A stretch of 64,000 bases of DNA from an uncultured Gemmatimonadales bacterium (GTDB taxonomy: Bacteria > Gemmatimonadota > Gemmatimonadetes > Gemmatimonadales > GWC2-71-9), in NCBI GenBank assembly GCA_963798915.1, contig CAWCVB010000005.1, positions 409,291 through 473,290 on the forward strand, written 5' to 3'. The position numbers are program-made. Of the stretch, positions 37,201 through 46,200 are shown in pieces. Position 1 is the first letter of the stretch. Each line of letters opens with the position of its first letter.

Positions 37201-40200
37201 ACCGCGCCGCGCTGCCGGGAGCTGCAGCGGAATGGGCAGGAAGCGGTTCTGCGCGAGCGAACCGGGCTGGTCGCGGACCCGTATTTCAGCGCCACCAAGC
37301 TCGAATGGCTCCTGCGCCAGCCAGCGGTGCGCCAGCGGGCGGCGCATGGGGAGCTCGCCGCCGGCACGATCGACTCGTGGCTTGTCGCCCGGCTGACCGG
37401 CGGCCGCACGCATGTTACCGACCATACCAATGCGTCCCGCACACTGCTTTACGATCTCTCGACCCGCACCTGGGCCGATGAGCTGCTGGCAATGTTCGGC
37501 ATTCCGCGGGAGCTGCTGCCACGTATTGTCGCGTCCGGTAGTATCGTCGCCGAGACGGACGCGGCCTGGTTCGGGCGACCGATCCCCATCGCCGGCATGG
37601 CGGGCGACCAGCAGGCGTCGCTCTTCGGGCTCGGCTGCATGGCCACGGGCGAGGCCAAGAACACCTACGGGACGGGCGCGTTCCTGCTGGTCCACCAGGG
37701 CGACGTGCTCCCCGTGCCGCCGCAAGGCGTGCTGGCGACCGCCGCCTGCGGCGCACGGGGCGAGCCCGCCTATGCCCTTGAAGGTTCCATTCTGATCGCG
37801 GGCGCCGCCGTCCAGTGGCTGCGTGATCAGCTCGGCATCATCTCCACGGCGGGCGAAACGGAACGGCTGGCCCGCAGCGTGCCCGACACCGGTGGCGTGC
37901 ATTTCGTGCCCGCATTTGCCGGACTTGGCACACCCCACTGGGCGCCCGAGGCGCGCGGCATGATTACCGGCCTGACCCGCGGAACCAGCCGCGCACACAT
38001 CGCGCGGGCCGCGCTGGAGGCCATGGCCTTTGGCACGGCGGAGCTCTATCGGGCGATGGGTGCGACGTCGGGCCTCAAGGTGGACGGTGGGGCATCGGCC
38101 AATGACTGGCTCATGCAGTTTCAGGCGGACATCCTGGGGACTCCCGTGCAGCGGCCGGATGTGATCGAATCCACGGCGCTCGGCGCGGCCGGGCTGGCCG
38201 GCGTGACCGTCGGCATCTGGAAGAATGCAGAGGCCTTTCTTGCGGCACGATCGTTCACCGAATTTGTGCCCCGGATGTCCGCCGCGGAGCGCGCGCGCCA
38301 GCTCGCCGGATGGAGGCGTGCGGTGGCGGCAACGCTTGCATGGGCAACGCCCGATCAGGTCACGGAATAGCAGCGCCGTGGCAGACGGTGCACATCTCCG
38401 GATTCTTCCTCCGAAGCCGCTCCGCATCGAAGCCGGGACCATGCGGATTGAAGCGGCGCCCGCCGTTGGCCGAATGACAGGTGAGGCAGTCGCGCTCGAC
38501 ATGACAGCTCACGCAAGTCTCCAGGGACTGCCGGGCCGCCTTGCCGTGCCCGAGGAGGAAGGTCGGGTTGGCATCGTGATAGTTGCCCCGCAGCGGGCCG
38601 CTGGAGCGAAGCCCCGCCTCGGCATGGCAGGTCATGCAGAATGAGGCCGTGTTGTGGCAGGCCGCGCAGTCGGACGCGCGCGCAAATGCCGCGGCCGGGT
38701 GACGAGTGAGGAAGCCGGCCGGGTGATACTCCTGCGCGGTGCCGGGTGTCGGCACGTGGCAGTAGAGACACTCGGTCCGGGCGTGACAGGTGGCGCAGGT
38801 GCGCGGGGCCGCGCGAGCGAACGCCGCATGATCCTCGGAAAAATCAGCGCCATGCGTGGCGGGGCGCCGCCGGGTGACGACGGCACCGGTGGCCCGTCCT
38901 GGACCGGCCACGGCCAGGCGCTTCACTGCGCCGGGTTCACTCCCGGCATGGCAAGTGAGGCAGCTCTCCCGTGTGTGGCAGGTGGCACAGGTTGACGCCG
39001 TGCTGAGGCCCCGGCCATGTGACTGCAGGAAACCGGATGACTGGTGTGATTCGGGCGCCGCGAGGGTCGCTGCGATCGCGGTGGATCGCGGGTCGGGCGC
39101 GAGCGCCTGGATCGCCGGTGTCTCGGGCGCGTCCACATGACACTGCAGGCAGAAATTCCGGGCGTGGCAAGTTGCGCACGACGCCGCGACACCGTGGGTA
39201 GCCCCCATCGTGGCCAGACGTCCATGCCCGCTGCTGCCGAAGCCGGCAACCTGGTGCGACGCTGGCTCCGGGAAGCGAGCGATGTCCTGCCTTGAGAGCC
39301 GGGTCGCTTGGGACAACGGCACGTGACAGGTGGCACACGCCGTGTCCGGTGCAGCGAAGTGGCCGCCGGTCACACCGTGACAGGAGAGGCAGGCGCCGCT
39401 AACGGCAAGCGACACCTGCATCCAGCCCTTGCCAGGGGGGATGTGACAGGCAGCGCAGCGTTGTGCTGAATCGACGGCGATTCCGCGGGAGCGACTGTAC
39501 TTCGCGGCGTGCGCGGTGTGCTGGAAGTCGAGGTTGGTGGCCGGCAGTTCGGTCGGAGGCGTCCAATCCACCCGGCGCTCCACGCTCCCGTCGTGGCAGA
39601 TGGTGCAGGCCACGCCTGCGGGATATGGCTGGCTGCCGGTAAGCACGCCGGCATGACAGCTGGTGCAGCTCGGGAACAACTTGGCATGCTGGTCATGGTC
39701 AAAGCGATCGGTCTGTCGGCCCAGGCGGGCGCCGCCCAATCCGATGGCCGTGAGCCCGACCAGCGCGAGCGCCAGCCGCAGATGAGTTCGGATCCAGGTC
39801 ATCGGCTGCGCTGCTCCGCGCCAGGCTTGCGCCGGCGCGCCGGGGGAAGCGGCGTCGTGCCGGCGCCACCGAAAAGCAGCGTAAGGCGGGCGTTGAGCCG
39901 AGTCTGGGTCCAGTCGAAGGCCGCGGCGTCCGGACGATCGCGGGTTTCCCAGTAACGCGCCACGCCGGCACCAGCCCGAATCCGGTCCGACGCATCCCAG
40001 TCCACCTCGAAGCCGACCGTGCTCACGGTTGCGTCGTCATACCGAAATTCCAGCGGTCGTTGAAGCGCGGCACCGTTGAGCTGAAATGAGAGCCGTGGAG
40101 CGGCGGTGTAGGTGACCGTGCCGTCGAGGCCTCGTGAGGCGGCGCCCGGCCCGAATTCGCGGTGCGCGCCAAGGTCGAACTGCCATTGCGGCGTGAGCCA

Positions 40201-43200: not shown

Positions 43201-46200
43201 AGGATGGAGTCGAGCGCCACCTGCTGGCCAGCTCCCACAACACTGGAGTCCTGGCCAGGGGCCAGGACTCCAGTGAAGACTGCACGAATGGCGGCGCCGT
43301 ACACCGTGCCGACCAGGTCTAACGCATGGTGAGCGAACGGCGCGCCGGCTGCAGGCTCGAAGCCGGGAGCGGCTCGTCGAGCAAGCGCCGTGCAACGGCC
43401 GGCGGCGCGGGCAACGACGGATAGTTGGCCTGCATGTCCTTGATGCTTGCGCGCAGCAGCGCCTCGGCCAGGAAGGGATTGTGGACGCCAAGGCTCTTGT
43501 CGCCGTTGGCGTACAGTCCCTCGCCCACCAGGCGGGCGTTGAACTCGGCTCCTTCAGCAGACGTGATGATCGAGTCTCCGGCAAACTCTTCCGGATTGCT
43601 GCCCTTGATCGTCGGCAGATAGCCGGTGTCGGTGCCGGGATCAATGGCCTCGTTGCCATCCACATCCGTCCAGAGCACATCCGCCAGCGTCTTGAGCCGG
43701 TCACGCAGGTTGACGAGCAGCGACGCCGCCACGTCCTCCGATGCATGGCACCCGGAGTTGCTGCACGCGGCAAAGGTGCGCGCGCTGGTGGTGTAGCTGC
43801 AGCTGTTGTCGGCCACCGGCTTCCCGGTCCCATCAAGGCAGGGGATGGGCCGGAACAGGTGGCCGGTCGAGAAGATCTGCTCGCCAGTCAGGGTGTCGGT
43901 ATGCTGATAGGCATTGACGTGGCATCCGGCGCAGAGCCGCGGATTCCGCTCGGACGCATGGGACGTGAAGATCCGGGACGTGTCATATGCAAACCCGGCA
44001 GGGCGGTAGCCAGCGGTACCGAGAAGTACGGCGCCCTGCGGCGCGTGTGGCGTCGTTCCATGGCTCCCGCCGGCAGGTTCGGAGCGCCGGATGTGGCAGC
44101 GCATGCACAGGTTCAGCTCGGGATCCGGATTGGAGATCGAGAACCGGAGCTGCGACTCGTTGGGCGACCCATGCGGATCATGGCAGACTGCACACGTGGT
44201 GGCCATGGGTGTCGCGTCGTCATGTTCCACAAAGTTGGCATCCGCGTTCCAGGCTCGCAGGACCCCCTTGCCCTCGTGGCAGCTCTGGCATTCGGCGCGA
44301 CTCGCCGGCGAGGCAACCACCTGCGCATGGGCGGATTGTTTCCACTCATCGGCGAAGGGATTGTGGCCGCCCGAGTGGCACGCGGCGCAACTGGCAGCAG
44401 AATCATCCAGCGTCATGTGCGCCAACGGCACGTTACCGGGCAGGTCGGGGGCCTGCACATGCTCCAGCCCAGGGCCATGGCAGTTTTCGCACTGGACGTT
44501 ATGGTAGGCCGAATCCTCGACCAGATTCCAGCCGGCCGGTCCGGTGAGGCCGTTACCCTTCTCGTTCAGGGTATGGCAGCCAAAGCAGCTGGGCTGCGAA
44601 TGACCCGAGTTGATCAGCGTGGCATAGGCCTCGGCGTGCGCTGAGGTCTTCCAGTCCTTCCCGTGCTCGACATGGCAATTGCCACACGTCGTCTGGTTGC
44701 TGGCGACGTCGAACAGGCCAAGGAAGCCATTGATGCTGTCAGGTGGCGGGTTGAACGGCGGGCGGTCCCGGAAGACGATCTTGTCGGAACCGCAGCCTAC
44801 GAGCAAGGCGAGGGCCGTCAGGGTGAAACAGAGGAAGCTGGCACGGCGTCGGCTTGGCGCAGTCATATTTGACCCTTGAGAGGGAATCTGCATACAATAC
44901 CTACGGACATCTGCGGAGTTTCGCAAGCGCTGTGGGTATCCCATGAGCGGATCGTCACATATTCTTCATGAAATCTGCGCTTCCCGGCCCCACTCTTCAT
45001 TGTTACAACCACACGGTCGTCGTCTCGTTATTCTAGGGGCTCTGTGATGAATCCACGGTTCTGCTCGGCGTGCGGGAGTCAGCTTCGGCCCGGCGGCCGC
45101 TTCTGCGGCGCATGCGGAGCGCCAGCCGATGGCGTCCCGGTGACGGCCTCAGGCGGAATGCGCCGCGTCGCCGGTCATCCTGGGTGCACTGGTGGTGCTG
45201 ACCGGGGTGGTGCTGCTGGCTCGGTCCCAGCGGCGGCCAGCGGAGCCGGACTCGTCGTTGGCATCGGCCGCCGGCGCCGGGGCGGTCATGCCACCTGACA
45301 TCAGTGGCATGTCGCCGCGCGAACGGTTTGACCGACTGTACAACCGCAGCATGACGGCAGCCGAAGCGGGCGATGCATCCACCCTGTCCACTTTTGCACC
45401 AATGGCCTTGCTGGCGTATGCCCAGCTCGACACCGTGGATGCCGATGCGCGCTATCATGCGGCCATGCTCCGGCTGCACACCGGAGACGTGCCCGGCGCT
45501 GCGGCGCTGGCCGATTCGATTCTGGCTGCAACGCCGGGCCACCTCTTCGGATACGTGATCCAGTTGACCGTGGCGCGCTGGCGGAAGGATACCGCCGCCG
45601 CCGCCGCCGCCCAGCGTGCCTTTGCGGCCCACTACGACGCCGAACTCCAGGCGGGCCGACCGGAGTACGCCGAGCACCGGACCATACTGGATGACACCCG
45701 CCGTGGCGCCTCGGCCACCGTATCGAACTGACGGGCCGGCGTCCATGCTGCTATGTTGCACGTGATTGCCCGGACGACGGGCATGACTGCCTCCCGGAGA
45801 TAGGTCGACATGAAAGCCGGAACCAAATTCCTGGTCGGGGCTGCGGTGATCGTCGCCGCGGTCAGCTGGCTCATCGTGGCTGGCGTGCGCGAGACCGGTG
45901 TCTACTACCTCACGCCCACTGAGCTGGCTCAACGGGCCTCGGTGGACTCGAGCTACTTCGGTCTTGGTGTACGGGTCGGCGGCGCCAAGGTCGTGCCGGG
46001 CTCCGTGACCCGGAACGTCGCGTCGCAGGACATCGACTTCCGCATTTCGGACGGCCGTCAACAGTACCCCGTGCACTATCACGGGATCGTACCCGACACC
46101 TTCACGGGTGCCGACGACATCGAGGTCATCGTTGATGGAAGCCTGGGGCATGATGGGGTCATACGCGCCACCGAAGTGCTGGCGAAATGCGGGTCGCGCT

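What a model noticed while it worked through the whole genome (the two positions that open the first line are those of the whole stretch)
38360..44866. Two paralogous cytochrome-barrel-cytochrome modules with 16- to 18-haem proteins
Four co-directional genes encode an 8-haem lipoprotein of the MtrA/cytochrome c554 kind (g01730), an 18-haem protein (g01729), a haem-free 499-aa outer-membrane barrel of an unnamed family (g01728) and a 16-haem protein (g01727). A paralogous set lies at C3:21325-26690 (g01060 16 haems, g01061 haem-free, g01062 7 haems; 54, 46 and 42% identical to their partners), next to a molybdopterin-oxidoreductase/NrfD complex. In relatives the barrel gene is sandwiched between two genes rich in haem motifs. 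I read this as a porin-cytochrome type conduit for electron transfer across the outer membrane, of a kind not described for Gemmatimonadota and unrelated in sequence to MtrB/PioB.
Evidence so far: CxxCH counts and gene order; paralogy by blastp. Pfam below cut-offs only: MtrC/MtrF domain II/IV, cytochrome c7, c3 for g01729; g01730 best Swiss-Prot hit MtrA of Shewanella. g01728: no Pfam family; 339 representative clusters at E<=1e-3 among 1.84 billion proteins. Profile search of 41 Gemmatimonadota genomes: 11 of 15 other genomes of the family and 2 of 5 of a sister family have one copy, 0 of 20 in four other families. In 12 of 13 relatives' loci the 1.5 kb on each side holds an ORF with 7-17 CxxCH motifs (>=14 on both sides in 9); the 13th, cut short by its contig end, has 16 and 2; the middle gene has none in all 13. 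Cytochrome c maturation genes ccmE, F, H follow directly (g01732-34) [...]
(Added by a program. Inside this text positions count along the whole contig: contig position 409,291 is position 1 of the stretch shown here. "Call 12" and the like, gene names such as g00115 and contig names such as C1 are that model's own, and its searches are not shown. The text may have been shortened before it was handed on; [...] marks where a part breaks off. The agent that wrote the report below was given it as the finding of a first reader that could run no searches.)

Follow-up and report, generated by a model that had tools for sequence, protein, structure and literature searches.

The report
Gemmatimonadota outer-membrane cytochrome electron conduit
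Four tightly linked genes encode a wide outer-membrane barrel, a 16-haem protein predicted to thread through it, an inner-membrane-anchored 18-haem protein and a 9-haem lipoprotein, which together look like an undescribed wire carrying respiratory electrons across the cell envelope of a common soil phylum.

Summary
On the minus strand of 38360-44866 lie four co-directional genes with 8, 18, 0 and 16 CxxCH motifs, and a paralogous set lies on contig C3.

- The lipoprotein has a ninth, invariant CX4CH site. Its fold is closest to OcwA and the NrfA superfamily, not MtrA.
- The 18-haem protein is membrane-anchored by two helices, and its orthologs match NrfH/NapC quinol dehydrogenases.
- The C3 set has a fourth gene, a 9-haem copy of the C-terminal third of the 18-haem protein.
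- ccmEFH are transcribed divergently from the cluster.
- The barrel family is far more widespread than reported: 196 of 401 genomes of the phylum.

New evidence:
- The haem-free protein folds confidently (pLDDT 89.6) into a plugless barrel of about 24 strands.
- A complex prediction puts the last ~170 residues (7 haem motifs) of the 16-haem protein inside the barrel lumen (score 0.79, best control 0.00).
- The barrel-then-cytochrome gene pair is kept in 71 of 75 named loci and in 5 of 5 distant classes.

Verdict: a porin-cytochrome conduit of a new sequence family, confidence about 0.7. Direction of electron flow, substrate and location of the lipoprotein remain inferred. I rate it a new variant of a known kind, interest 0.6.

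The parts
43319..44866 (-). g01730: 515-aa lipoprotein multihaem cytochrome with 9 predicted haem sites, of the OcwA / NrfA-superfamily fold
   Evidence: Lipobox LLVGC, with Cys25 kept in >=90% of 40 aligned relatives. 8 CxxCH plus an invariant CX4CH, and nine conserved non-motif His. AF2 model pLDDT 80.7. Best fold matches are 6qvm (Z 15.3, 336 aa) and OcwA 6i5b (Z 14.4, 328 aa), then NrfA and ONR (Z 12-14). Pfam cytochrome c554 over residues 60-131. No CxxCK motif.
41295..43304 (-). g01729: 669-aa, 18-haem cytochrome. Two N-terminal membrane helices, an NrfH/NapC-like first haem module (9 haems), a variable Pro-rich linker and a conserved C-terminal 9-haem module
   Evidence: Hydrophobic segments at 55-81 and 91-116, followed by FCNGCH at residue 128. 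In alignment A4, 5 of 15 members hit Pfam NapC/NirT and 7 of 15 hit NCBIfam NrfH (best E 5.9e-12); the window copy itself does not. The C-terminal 200 aa occur as a separate gene in the C3 paralog and in other genomes.
39799..41298 (-). g01728: 499-aa haem-free outer-membrane beta-barrel of about 24 strands with no plug. Signal peptide MRVRAWAVAAVLLGGVAPGLHA|QG
   Evidence: AF2 pLDDT 89.6, pTM 0.83, 23 DSSP strand elements. VIA Z 16-18 to TonB-receptor barrels, FimD/PapC ushers and MtrB (Z 16.2, 363 aa). 7 of 70 relatives hit Pfam OMP_b-brl and 5 of 70 hit Porin_4. Its start overlaps the g01729 stop as ATGA.
38360..39802 (-). g01727: 480-aa secreted 16-haem cytochrome. Its C-terminal ~170 residues (7 haem motifs) are predicted to lie inside the barrel
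   Evidence: 16 CxxCH. N-terminal signal-like segment at 10-28. Pfam MtrC/MtrF domain II/IV at 62 bits against a cut-off of 30. Complex prediction 0.79 against 0.00 for controls, with the interface at residues ~308-474. Start overlaps the barrel stop as ATGA.
45810..48882 (+). ccmE, ccmF and ccmH (cytochrome c maturation), transcribed divergently from the cluster
   Evidence: Pfam CcmE, CcmF_C with Cytochrom_C_asm, and CcmH. A ccmF homolog lies within the fetched flanks of 20 of 100 related loci.

Best explanation
The four genes form one operon for a trans-envelope electron conduit of the porin-cytochrome type.

- g01728 is a wide, plugless outer-membrane barrel.
- g01727 is exported to the periplasm. 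Its C-terminal third (7 haems) is sheathed by the barrel, and its N-terminal 9 haems hang into the periplasm. This gives an insulated haem wire through the outer membrane, as MtrA does in MtrB.
- g01729 sits in the inner membrane. It exchanges electrons with the quinone pool through an NrfH/NapC-like first module and reaches outward with 18 haems. Its distal 9-haem module is the likely contact to g01727.
- g01730, an OcwA-like 9-haem lipoprotein, is the terminal redox partner. It is most likely on the cell surface, like MtrC or OmcB.

I think the most likely use is respiration of extracellular acceptors such as Fe(III)/Mn(IV) minerals or humic substances, though the hardware would also allow uptake.

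Shown by computation: gene content, motifs, folds, conserved gene order, and the predicted barrel-cytochrome complex. Inferred: membrane locations, the order of partners, the surface exposure of g01730, and direction and substrate.
For: 1. Haem motif counts are far above chance.
2. The operon is tight: ATGA start/stop overlaps at two junctions and a 14-nt gap at the third.
3. The barrel model is confident and matches only large outer-membrane barrels.
4. The complex prediction for barrel plus g01727 scored 0.86, 0.79 and 0.72 in three runs (median 0.79), with the best of 3 controls at 0.00. There were 380-405 contacts, partner pLDDT 75-78 in the three runs (the tool's floor: at least 74), and the runs agree in >=86% of contacts. 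That mark was reached by 116 of 157 solved complexes and by 2 of 215 mismatched pairs.
5. Contacts touch 22 of 23 strand elements. They fall on the polar face of the strands (mean hydropathy -0.95 against +1.05 for the other face), so the partner is in the lumen.
6. The most conserved barrel loop (298-314, P299 F301 L303 W304 W307 F310 P312) touches conserved g01727 residues (R424, Q425, H454, G455, N467).
7. Gene order is conserved:
   - 20 of 20 wide loci have a g01727 homolog directly after the barrel, 15 of them with exactly 16 motifs.
   - 27 of 29 short loci have one, and the two misses are cut by the locus end.
   - 71 of 75 named loci with room have an ORF with >=12 motifs after the barrel.
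8. In 5 of 5 distant classes, weak barrel homologs (E 1e-10 to 1e-18) are followed by a 12-14-haem ORF. That ORF is homologous to residues ~250-480 of g01727, the part predicted to be inside the barrel (E 5e-16 to 4e-10). A 6-10-haem ORF follows; the one translated (L137) carries a lipobox.
9. g01729 orthologs match NrfH/NapC.
10. g01730 is structurally closest to two cell-surface terminal reductases of Gram-positive metal reducers (OcwA paper PMC6703420, passages read).
11. All 8 ORFs with >=4 CxxCH in this genome lie in the two clusters or in their Nap-like neighbour.
Against: - Nothing here is experimental.
- The complex model has no haems, and my own alignments were used, so the tool's calibration holds only roughly. 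The solved MtrAB complex shares the general architecture, so part of the score could reflect learned likeness, although no sequence similarity to MtrB is detectable.
- Only one pair was tested. The 9-haem module or the lipoprotein were not tried against the barrel.
- The surface location of g01730 is untested. Its NrfA-superfamily fold next to an NrfH-like protein also fits a periplasmic enzyme pair.
- The window's own g01729 does not itself reach any NrfH/NapC model. Its first motif reads CHIF, not the CHVM seen in other families.
- Secretin genes exist, but none passes the GspD cut-off, so a route to the surface for a lipoprotein is not shown.
- The genome is 84.8% complete, so 'all multihaem genes' is a lower bound.
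- 4 of 75 named loci have fewer than 12 motifs downstream, and 12 of 62 have a different upstream gene set.
Confidence: 0.7

Rival explanations
1. Same hardware run inwards. The conduit takes electrons from extracellular donors (Fe(II), Mn(II), reduced humics, minerals) and delivers them to the quinone pool or to periplasmic reductases, as MtoAB and PioAB do.
For: NrfH/NapC-type modules are reversible in known systems (statement in Zhong and Shi 2018, PMC6295460, abstract seen). The C3 paralog lacks the inner-membrane anchor and lies back to back with a NapA-like periplasmic nitrate reductase gene set (756 bits to NapA, below the 904 cut-off). That arrangement would fit donor oxidation coupled to nitrate reduction.
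Against: The Nap-like neighbourhood is not conserved: a NapA-like gene lies in the flanks of 2 of 100 related loci. The closest structural relatives of g01730 are terminal reductases of metal reducers. No sequence feature fixes the direction.
Confidence: 0.2
2. g01730 and g01729 form a periplasmic, membrane-bound NrfHA-like quinol:substrate oxidoreductase acting on a soluble compound (nitrite, hydroxylamine, a sulfur oxyanion). The barrel-cytochrome pair would be an accessory electron outlet, or the barrel only a substrate pore.
For: g01730 has the NrfA/ONR/HAO/MccA superfamily fold (Z 12-14 to NrfA and ONR). g01729 orthologs match NrfH. The two genes are adjacent. OcwA itself reduces nitrite and hydroxylamine slowly (PMC6703420).
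Against: There is no CxxCK catalytic motif. Nine conserved non-motif histidines are available for nine haems. g01730 stays next to the barrel in loci that lack any NrfH-like gene (L043, L044, L050 and the short-form loci). The barrel lumen is predicted to be filled by g01727, so it is not an open pore.
Confidence: 0.08
3. The barrel is an ordinary porin or transporter that merely sits among cytochrome genes, with no physical complex.
For: The barrel has no diagnostic family. Fold matches are generic (TonB receptors, ushers, porins).
Against: The junctions are translationally coupled. The pairing is conserved across the phylum, including distant classes. The complex prediction was strong and specific, with all three controls at 0.00.
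Confidence: 0.02

Closest known systems
MtrCAB of Shewanella (solved as 6R2Q)
   Same: Lipoprotein cytochrome, then periplasmic cytochrome, then barrel, in the same gene order. A multihaem protein is sheathed by a wide plugless barrel, and the predicted polarity has its N-terminus in the periplasm. The barrel model aligns to MtrB with Z 16.2 over 363 residues.
   Different: There is no detectable sequence relation: 0 of 70 barrel relatives hit the MtrB/PioB Pfam family, and a profile search of solved structures finds no MtrB at E<=10. The barrel has about 24 strands in 499 aa, against a 649-residue MtrB chain. The threaded protein has 16 haems, not 10, and follows the barrel gene. The lipoprotein has the OcwA/NrfA fold, not the MtrC fold. 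An inner-membrane anchor is encoded in the operon.
Geobacter Pcc (OmbB-OmaB-OmcB) and Ext clusters
   Same: A triad of porin-like protein, secreted multihaem cytochrome and lipoprotein multihaem cytochrome. In the distant classes of this phylum the order is barrel, 12-14-haem protein, then a 6-10-haem protein that carries a lipobox in the one locus translated (L137). That matches ombB-omaB-omcB as described in PMC4245776 (abstract and passages).
   Different: Homology could not be tested, because no Geobacter sequences were available to me. The BLAST survey seeded with Pcc proteins by Shi et al. 2014 names six phyla, and 'Gemmatimon' occurs 0 times in its text. Pcc porins are predicted with 18-22 strands and periplasmic partners with 5-14 haems. 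Weak NCBIfam hits of g01730 to ExtKL and GSU2203 family models are far below cut-off.
PCC3 / PCC4 candidate clusters of iron oxidisers (He et al. 2017, PMC5566968)
   Same: A predicted porin with very haem-rich cytochromes and an inner-membrane redox protein, proposed to span the whole envelope. These too are known only from genomes (passages read).
   Different: PCC3/4 carry a conserved 5-helix inner-membrane protein with two WX3HX13H motifs for b-haems. Here the anchor is a 2-helix c-type NrfH-like protein. PCC3 cytochromes have medians of 34 and 21 haems and low-complexity repeats. PCC3 hosts are mostly Proteobacteria.
OcwA of Thermincola potens (6I5B) and the S-layer undecahaem cytochrome of Carboxydothermus ferrireducens (6QVM)
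   Same: Best structural matches of g01730 (Z 14.4 and 15.3, 23-24% identity over about 330 residues). Shared features are nine haem sites, a c554-like N-terminal part, an NrfA-like core and C-terminal long helices.
   Different: Those are cell-wall or S-layer proteins of monoderm bacteria. g01730 is a lipoprotein of a diderm and is encoded beside an outer-membrane barrel. The spin states and ligands of its haems are unknown.
NrfH / NapC / CymA quinol dehydrogenases
   Same: A membrane anchor is directly followed by the first CxxCH. Orthologs of g01729 carry FCxxCHVM and hit NrfH (best E 5.9e-12) and Pfam NapC/NirT (best 1.7e-5).
   Different: Two helices instead of one, 18 haems instead of 4, and a fused distal 9-haem module. 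The window's copy scores below reporting thresholds for these families.

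Membership tests
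MtrB/PioB porin family (Pfam PF11854) | Sequence match to the family model | tested here: not met
   No hit for g01728 at E<=1. 0 of 70 aligned relatives hit it at E<=0.1. A profile of the family finds no MtrB chain among solved structures at E<=10.
MtrB/PioB porin family (Pfam PF11854) | Large plugless barrel that sheathes a multihaem cytochrome | tested here: met
   AF2 barrel. Z 16.2 to 6r2q_B, tied with other large barrels. g01727 is predicted inside the lumen. This is prediction only.
MtrA/DmsE decahaem family (NCBIfam TIGR03508) | Score above the curated cut-off (192.2 bits) | tested here: not met
   g01730 scores 43.5 bits and g01729 28.7 bits. g01727 has no hit.
Geobacter Pcc (OmaB/OmbB/OmcB) | Homology to the Pcc proteins | not testable with these tools
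   No Geobacter sequences could be fetched. Only the architecture (porin, secreted cytochrome, lipoprotein cytochrome) could be compared.
PCC3/PCC4 (He et al. 2017) | Conserved 5-helix inner-membrane protein with two WX3HX13H motifs | tested here: not met
   The four-gene cluster has no such gene. Its membrane protein has two hydrophobic segments and c-type motifs. A variant cluster in relatives does carry a 306-aa membrane ORF, which I did not analyse for these motifs.
OcwA / NrfA-ONR-HAO-MccA multihaem superfamily (for g01730) | Shared fold of the haem core and C-terminal helices | tested here: met
   VIA Z 15.3 (6qvm), 14.4 (6i5b), 13.7 (NrfA 6v0a), 12.9 (ONR 8rv0), 8.7 (HAO) and 8.3 (MccA). 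Unrelated rows score <=6. Foldseek E 1.9e-5 to 6i5b. Long helices at 377-398, 436-447 and 464-481.
NrfA proper (pentahaem nitrite reductase) | CxxCK catalytic haem motif | tested here: not met
   0 CxxCK in g01730.
NapC/NirT/NrfH quinol dehydrogenases (for the g01729 N-terminal module) | Membrane anchor followed by the first haem motif; match to PF03264 or TIGR03153 | tested here: inconclusive
   The anchor and adjacent CxxCH are present. The window copy has no hit to either model. Of the 15 aligned relatives, 5 hit PF03264 and 7 hit NrfH, all below the equivalog cut-off of 134 bits as far as shown.
Bacterial outer-membrane beta-barrel proteins | Signal peptide, closed antiparallel barrel, alternating polar and hydrophobic strand faces | tested here: met
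   Signal peptide read from the sequence. Barrel model. Strand faces have hydropathy -0.95 against +1.05. Generic OMP Pfam hits in a minority of relatives.

The most novel reading that the evidence does not exclude
The system is a fully hard-wired, shuttle-free chain of 43 covalently bound haems (18 + 16 + 9) running from the inner-membrane quinone pool to the cell surface. An inner-membrane-anchored cytochrome would be long enough to bridge the periplasm and dock directly onto a 16-haem wire threaded through a new kind of barrel, capped by an OcwA-type reductase otherwise known only from Gram-positive cell walls. That would give Gemmatimonadota, usually regarded (my recollection, no call) as mostly aerobic heterotrophs of soil, a widespread capacity for mineral or humic respiration.
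Probability: 0.3. Interest if true: 0.8.

Novelty: new variant of a known kind. Interest (0 to 1): 0.6.

Why it matters
Gemmatimonadota are, to my recollection (no call), among the more abundant soil phyla and are mostly regarded as aerobic heterotrophs. Half of the sampled genomes of the phylum (196 of 401) carry this barrel family, nearly always with its cytochrome partners. If the conduit works as predicted, a large and overlooked group could exchange electrons with iron and manganese minerals, humic matter or electrodes. Gene surveys seeded with Mtr, Pcc or Cyc2 sequences would miss it.

It would also add a fourth sequence-unrelated solution to the same physical problem of getting electrons across an outer membrane. 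The combination of parts is unusual: a threaded 16-haem wire, a fused inner-membrane anchor, and an OcwA-like cap.

Tried and rejected
- **Sequence searches of solved structures.** For the barrel, a single-sequence search gave only chance hits to avidin (E 0.4-1.5) and a profile search gave one chance hit at E 0.5.
- **Family libraries for the barrel.** NCBIfam and Pfam gave only chance-level hits: DUF6454 at E 0.19 and Opr porin at E 0.21.
- **Earlier findings of this scan.** Nothing by place or by sequence.
- **Public sequencing runs for the operon.** None was listed, so no reads could be laid. No RNA holder was listed.
- **Protein atlas.** It only returned Gemmatimonadota 'hypothetical protein' clusters.
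- **Type II secretion.** Secretin-family matches lie at three places in the genome, none over the GspD cut-off, so the question is uninformative.
- **Nap linkage of the paralog.** Rejected as a general feature: 2 of 100 loci.
- **Ghost-rock metagenome paper (PMC13264449).** It reports porin-cytochrome clusters in 36 MAGs and has Gemmatimonadota MAGs. The text names only some phyla, its figure is not held, and the held supplement has no porin or cytochrome table. Whether it depicts this cluster cannot be told.
- **My first automatic synteny count.** One search used too strict an adjacency rule and under-counted. It was replaced.
- **Not tried, because the job cap was reached.** Complex predictions of the barrel with the 9-haem module, of g01730 with the barrel-g01727 pair, and of g01729 with g01727.

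Full report
**What is in the sequence**

The minus strand of 38360-44866 carries four ORFs in a row: 43319-44866 (515 aa), 41295-43304 (669 aa), 39799-41298 (499 aa) and 38360-39802 (480 aa). They hold 8, 18, 0 and 16 CxxCH motifs. Shuffles of the same proteins give means of 0.06-0.2 and never more than 4.

The junctions are tight. There is a 14-nt gap after the first gene, and ATGA start/stop overlaps at the other two junctions. The four genes therefore read as one translationally coupled operon.

The operon is flanked by a convergent glycerol kinase gene. On the other side, on the opposite strand, lie ccmE, ccmF and ccmH. The window is G000:C5:409291-473290.

**The paralogous set**

tblastn finds a second set at C3:21337-26690, with 53.8, 45.8 and 41.5% identity for the 16-haem protein, the barrel and the lipoprotein.

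It is a 236-aa ORF with 9 CxxCH motifs and a signal-like N-terminus, 47% identical to residues 466-668 of the 18-haem protein. So the 18-haem protein is a fusion of a membrane-anchored 9-haem half and a 9-haem module that can also stand alone.

In this 84.8%-complete genome only 8 ORFs have four or more CxxCH motifs. Six are these two sets, and two belong to a NapA-like gene group next to the C3 set.

**The barrel (g01728)**

- It has a signal peptide ending LHA|QG and no family in Pfam or NCBIfam.
- With 70 relatives aligned (A1), AlphaFold2 gives pLDDT 89.6 and pTM 0.83, with 23 strand elements. The first element is long enough to be a hairpin, so I read about 24 strands.
- Its fold matches are the barrels of TonB-dependent receptors and SusC, the FimD/PapC ushers and MtrB. 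Z is 16-18 over 336-377 residues, and MtrB gives Z 16.2. Foldseek TM-scores are 0.24-0.48.
- This is a generic large-barrel likeness. There is no plug domain in the 499 residues.
- Of 70 relatives, 7 hit Pfam OMP_b-brl, 5 hit Porin_4 and none hits the MtrB/PioB family. A family profile finds no MtrB among solved structures.

**The 16-haem protein (g01727) and its predicted place in the barrel**

g01727 has a signal-like N-terminus, a Pfam MtrC/MtrF domain II/IV match (62 bits, cut-off 30) and five CxxCH pairs spaced 9-10 residues apart.

- The three runs scored 0.86, 0.79 and 0.72 (median 0.79). The best of three controls scored 0.00.
- There were 380-405 contacts. Partner pLDDT was 75-78 in the three runs (the tool's floor: at least 74), and the runs agree in at least 86% of contacts.
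- That mark was reached by 116 of 157 solved complexes and by 2 of 215 mismatched pairs. The tool notes that these counts hold only roughly with my own alignments.

The interface on g01727 is residues ~308-474, which carry the last seven haem motifs. On the barrel the contacts touch 22 of 23 strand elements. They lie on the strand face that is polar (mean Kyte-Doolittle -0.95), not the hydrophobic one (+1.05). That is what a protein inside the lumen would give.

The lowest-error contacts join the most conserved barrel segment (loop 298-314; invariant P299, F301 and F310, and L303, W304, W307 and P312 kept in >=90% of rows) to conserved g01727 residues (R424, Q425, H454, G455, N467).

By strand parity this loop lies on the same side as the other long loops (117-129, 186-211, 342-355). 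The opposite side has turns of 2-5 residues. By the usual rule for outer-membrane proteins (established knowledge, not tested here), the long-loop side faces outward. On that reading the C-terminus of the cytochrome points out and its N-terminal nine haems hang into the periplasm, as in MtrA-MtrB.

Caveats:
- The model has no haems.
- A like architecture (6R2Q) is solved, so some of the confidence may come from learned likeness.
- The other candidate partners were not tested.

**The 18-haem protein (g01729)**

Two strongly hydrophobic segments (55-81 and 91-116) are separated by a basic loop. They are followed at once by the first haem motif (FCNGCH at residue 128).

In the alignment of ten long and five short relatives (A4), the long forms of other families read FCxxCHVM at this place. 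I recall this as the NapC/NirT/NrfH signature; the motif name comes from memory, not from a call.

- 5 of the 15 members hit Pfam NapC/NirT (best E 1.7e-5).
- 7 of the 15 hit NCBIfam NrfH (best E 5.9e-12).
- The window copy hits neither.

A variable, proline-rich linker separates the first nine haems from the conserved distal nine. I read the protein as a quinol-interacting inner-membrane anchor that carries its own periplasmic wire.

**The lipoprotein (g01730)**

- The lipobox cysteine is kept in at least 90% of 40 aligned relatives.
- All eight CxxCH motifs and a ninth motif, C368-x4-C373-H374, are invariant.
- Nine non-motif histidines are conserved.
- The model (pLDDT 80.7) is closest to the S-layer undecahaem cytochrome of Carboxydothermus ferrireducens (6qvm, Z 15.3, 336 residues, 23% identity) and to OcwA of Thermincola potens (6i5b, Z 14.4, 328 residues, 24%). 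NrfA and octahaem nitrite reductases follow (Z 12-14), then HAO and MccA (Z 8-9). Unrelated rows score 6 or less.
- 6I5B is OcwA. It is a nine-haem surface terminal reductase with a c554-like first part, an NrfA-like core and a three-helix bundle (PMC6703420, passages read).
- g01730 has the Pfam cytochrome c554 match at residues 60-131 and no CxxCK motif.

So 'MtrA/c554 kind' is only partly right. MtrA is the second-best sequence hit among solved structures (E 1.7e-4), after OcwA (9.6e-5).

**Conservation**

The family profile finds matches in 196 of 401 sampled genomes of the phylum (191 of 395 high-quality ones).

| Family | Genomes with a match |
|---|---|
| f1 | 117/166 |
| f2 | 26/93 |
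| f3 | 5/5 |
| f4 | 5/7 |
| f5 | 2/2 |
| f6 | 10/30 |
| f7 | 12/70 |
| f8 | 0/4 |
| f9 | 3/4 |
| f10 | 9/13 |
| f11 | 3/3 |
| f12 | 3/3 |

The last three families match only weakly, at E 1e-6 to 1e-18.

In 20 wide loci:
- The gene after the barrel is always a g01727 homolog (20 of 20). It has 16 motifs in 15 loci and 7, 10, 12, 14 and 18 in the others.
- A g01730 homolog is present in 17. Two of the misses are a variant cluster and one locus is cut at the contig end.
- The gene between the lipoprotein and the barrel is the long form in 10 loci, the short 8-9-haem form in 3, and absent in 4. One of those 4 has a short form elsewhere in the locus.

In 29 short loci, 27 have the complete downstream cytochrome. 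The other two are cut.

In 80 named loci, nearly all from Gemmatimonadales MAGs:
- 71 of 75 with room have an ORF with 12 or more motifs after the barrel. The four others have 7-11.
- 50 of 62 with room have an ORF with 7 or more motifs ending at the barrel start.
- The other 12 carry a variant upstream set. In L033 it reads: 9-haem protein, 21-haem protein with an N-terminal anchor and FCKSCHIM, 11-haem protein and a 306-aa membrane ORF.

In five genomes of other classes, the weak barrel homologs (408-474 aa open frames) are each followed by a 12-14-haem ORF and then by a 6-10-haem ORF (5 of 5). The one I translated carries a lipobox. The 12-14-haem ORFs are homologous to residues ~250-480 of g01727 (E 5e-16 to 4e-10 in all five), which is the part predicted to lie in the barrel.

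The barrel and the inserted part of the cytochrome are thus the conserved core, and the other partners are exchangeable.

A ccmF homolog lies in the fetched flanks of 20 of 100 loci. A NapA-like gene lies in 2 of 100.

**How it most likely works**

Electrons leave, or enter, the quinone pool at the NrfH-like module of g01729. They run along its 18 haems and pass to the periplasmic end of g01727. They cross the outer membrane through the seven haems sheathed by g01728 and reach g01730.

I place g01730 on the surface with modest confidence (about 55:45). Lipoprotein cytochromes are the outer partners in Mtr and Pcc, a lipoprotein or other extra cytochrome always accompanies the barrel pair, and the nearest structures are surface reductases. 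A periplasmic, NrfHA-like role for g01730 with g01729 is the main alternative for that protein.

Direction and substrate cannot be read from the sequence. I favour outward flow (about 0.5 outward, 0.2 inward, and the rest unresolved or other readings).

**Comparison with what is known**

The system works like MtrCAB and the Geobacter Pcc complexes, but it fails the sequence tests for the Mtr families. It lacks the dihaem-b inner-membrane protein that defines PCC3 and PCC4 (PMC5566968, passages read).

Three full-text searches found no description of such a cluster in this phylum: Gemmatimonadetes + multiheme cytochrome + porin; Gemmatimonadota + extracellular electron transfer + multiheme; Gemmatimonad + porin-cytochrome.

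- Zhong and Shi 2018 list 2 ImcH and 1 CbcL homologs in Gemmatimonadetes, without porins.
- Shi et al. 2014 do not mention the phylum.
- A 2026 cave metagenome paper reports porin-cytochrome clusters in 36 MAGs, and I could not see its figure.

Surveys with FeGenie-type tools may list these genes unnamed. I did not find such a mention.

**Verdict**

This is a new sequence family and a new combination of parts for a known kind of machine. It is widespread in a major phylum, and it is entirely untested at the bench.

Noticed in passing
G000 contig C3:26778-31904 (L001 14779-19905, + strand): Back to back with the paralogous conduit set lies a TAT-signal molybdopterin oxidoreductase closest to NapA (756 bits, below the 904-bit equivalog cut-off). 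It is followed by 5-haem and 4-haem ORFs and a DsrO/NrfC-like 4Fe-4S protein. The paralog's 9-haem protein has no membrane anchor, so this set might feed or be fed by that periplasmic reductase. The linkage is not conserved (2 of 100 loci).
   Followed up: partly
L033 1563-9951 (G191:C3), and 11 further named loci listed: A variant cluster replaces the lipoprotein and the 18-haem gene. It has a 9-haem protein, a 21-haem protein with an N-terminal anchor and FCKSCHIM motif, an 11-haem protein and a 306-aa membrane ORF, and then the same barrel and 16-haem genes.
   Followed up: partly
L137-L141 (genomes G006, G009, G012, G018, G003 of other classes): Shorter barrels (about 410-460 aa), weakly related to g01728, are followed by a 12-14-haem gene and then a 6-10-haem gene. 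In L137 the latter has a lipobox and internal repeats and is unrelated to g01730. The gene order matches Geobacter ombB-omaB-omcB.
   Followed up: partly
whole genome G000: Only 8 ORFs in the assembly carry four or more CxxCH motifs, all in the two conduit sets or the Nap-like neighbour. No separate small periplasmic multihaem shuttle is encoded in the 84.8% of the genome that is assembled.
   Followed up: yes
L060, L098, L118 (named contigs): Three contigs with close copies of the barrel gene (46-55% identity over the best segment) come from MAGs labelled Bacillota, Acidimicrobiaceae and 'proteobacterium'. Among 80 otherwise Gemmatimonadota records, this looks like mis-binning or mislabelling rather than transfer.
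   Followed up: no
window 34446-36413 (+) and 45192-45731 (+): A 655-aa ORF and a 179-aa ORF with coding-like GC3 have no Pfam or NCBIfam family. The small one sits between the conduit operon and ccmE.
   Followed up: no
window 29455-32112 (-): An 885-aa Ser/Thr protein kinase fused to PD40/WD40-like beta-propeller repeats lies next to gyrB (32205-34181). uvrA is at 56404-59280.
   Followed up: no
L038 6327-6989 and L041 3725-8461: In two relatives the cluster genes appear split or fused in ORF calls. One has a 220-aa, 7-haem fragment in place of the 16-haem gene. In the other, the lipoprotein is in three pieces and an ORF runs from the 18-haem gene into the barrel. These may be frameshifts or assembly errors.
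   Followed up: no
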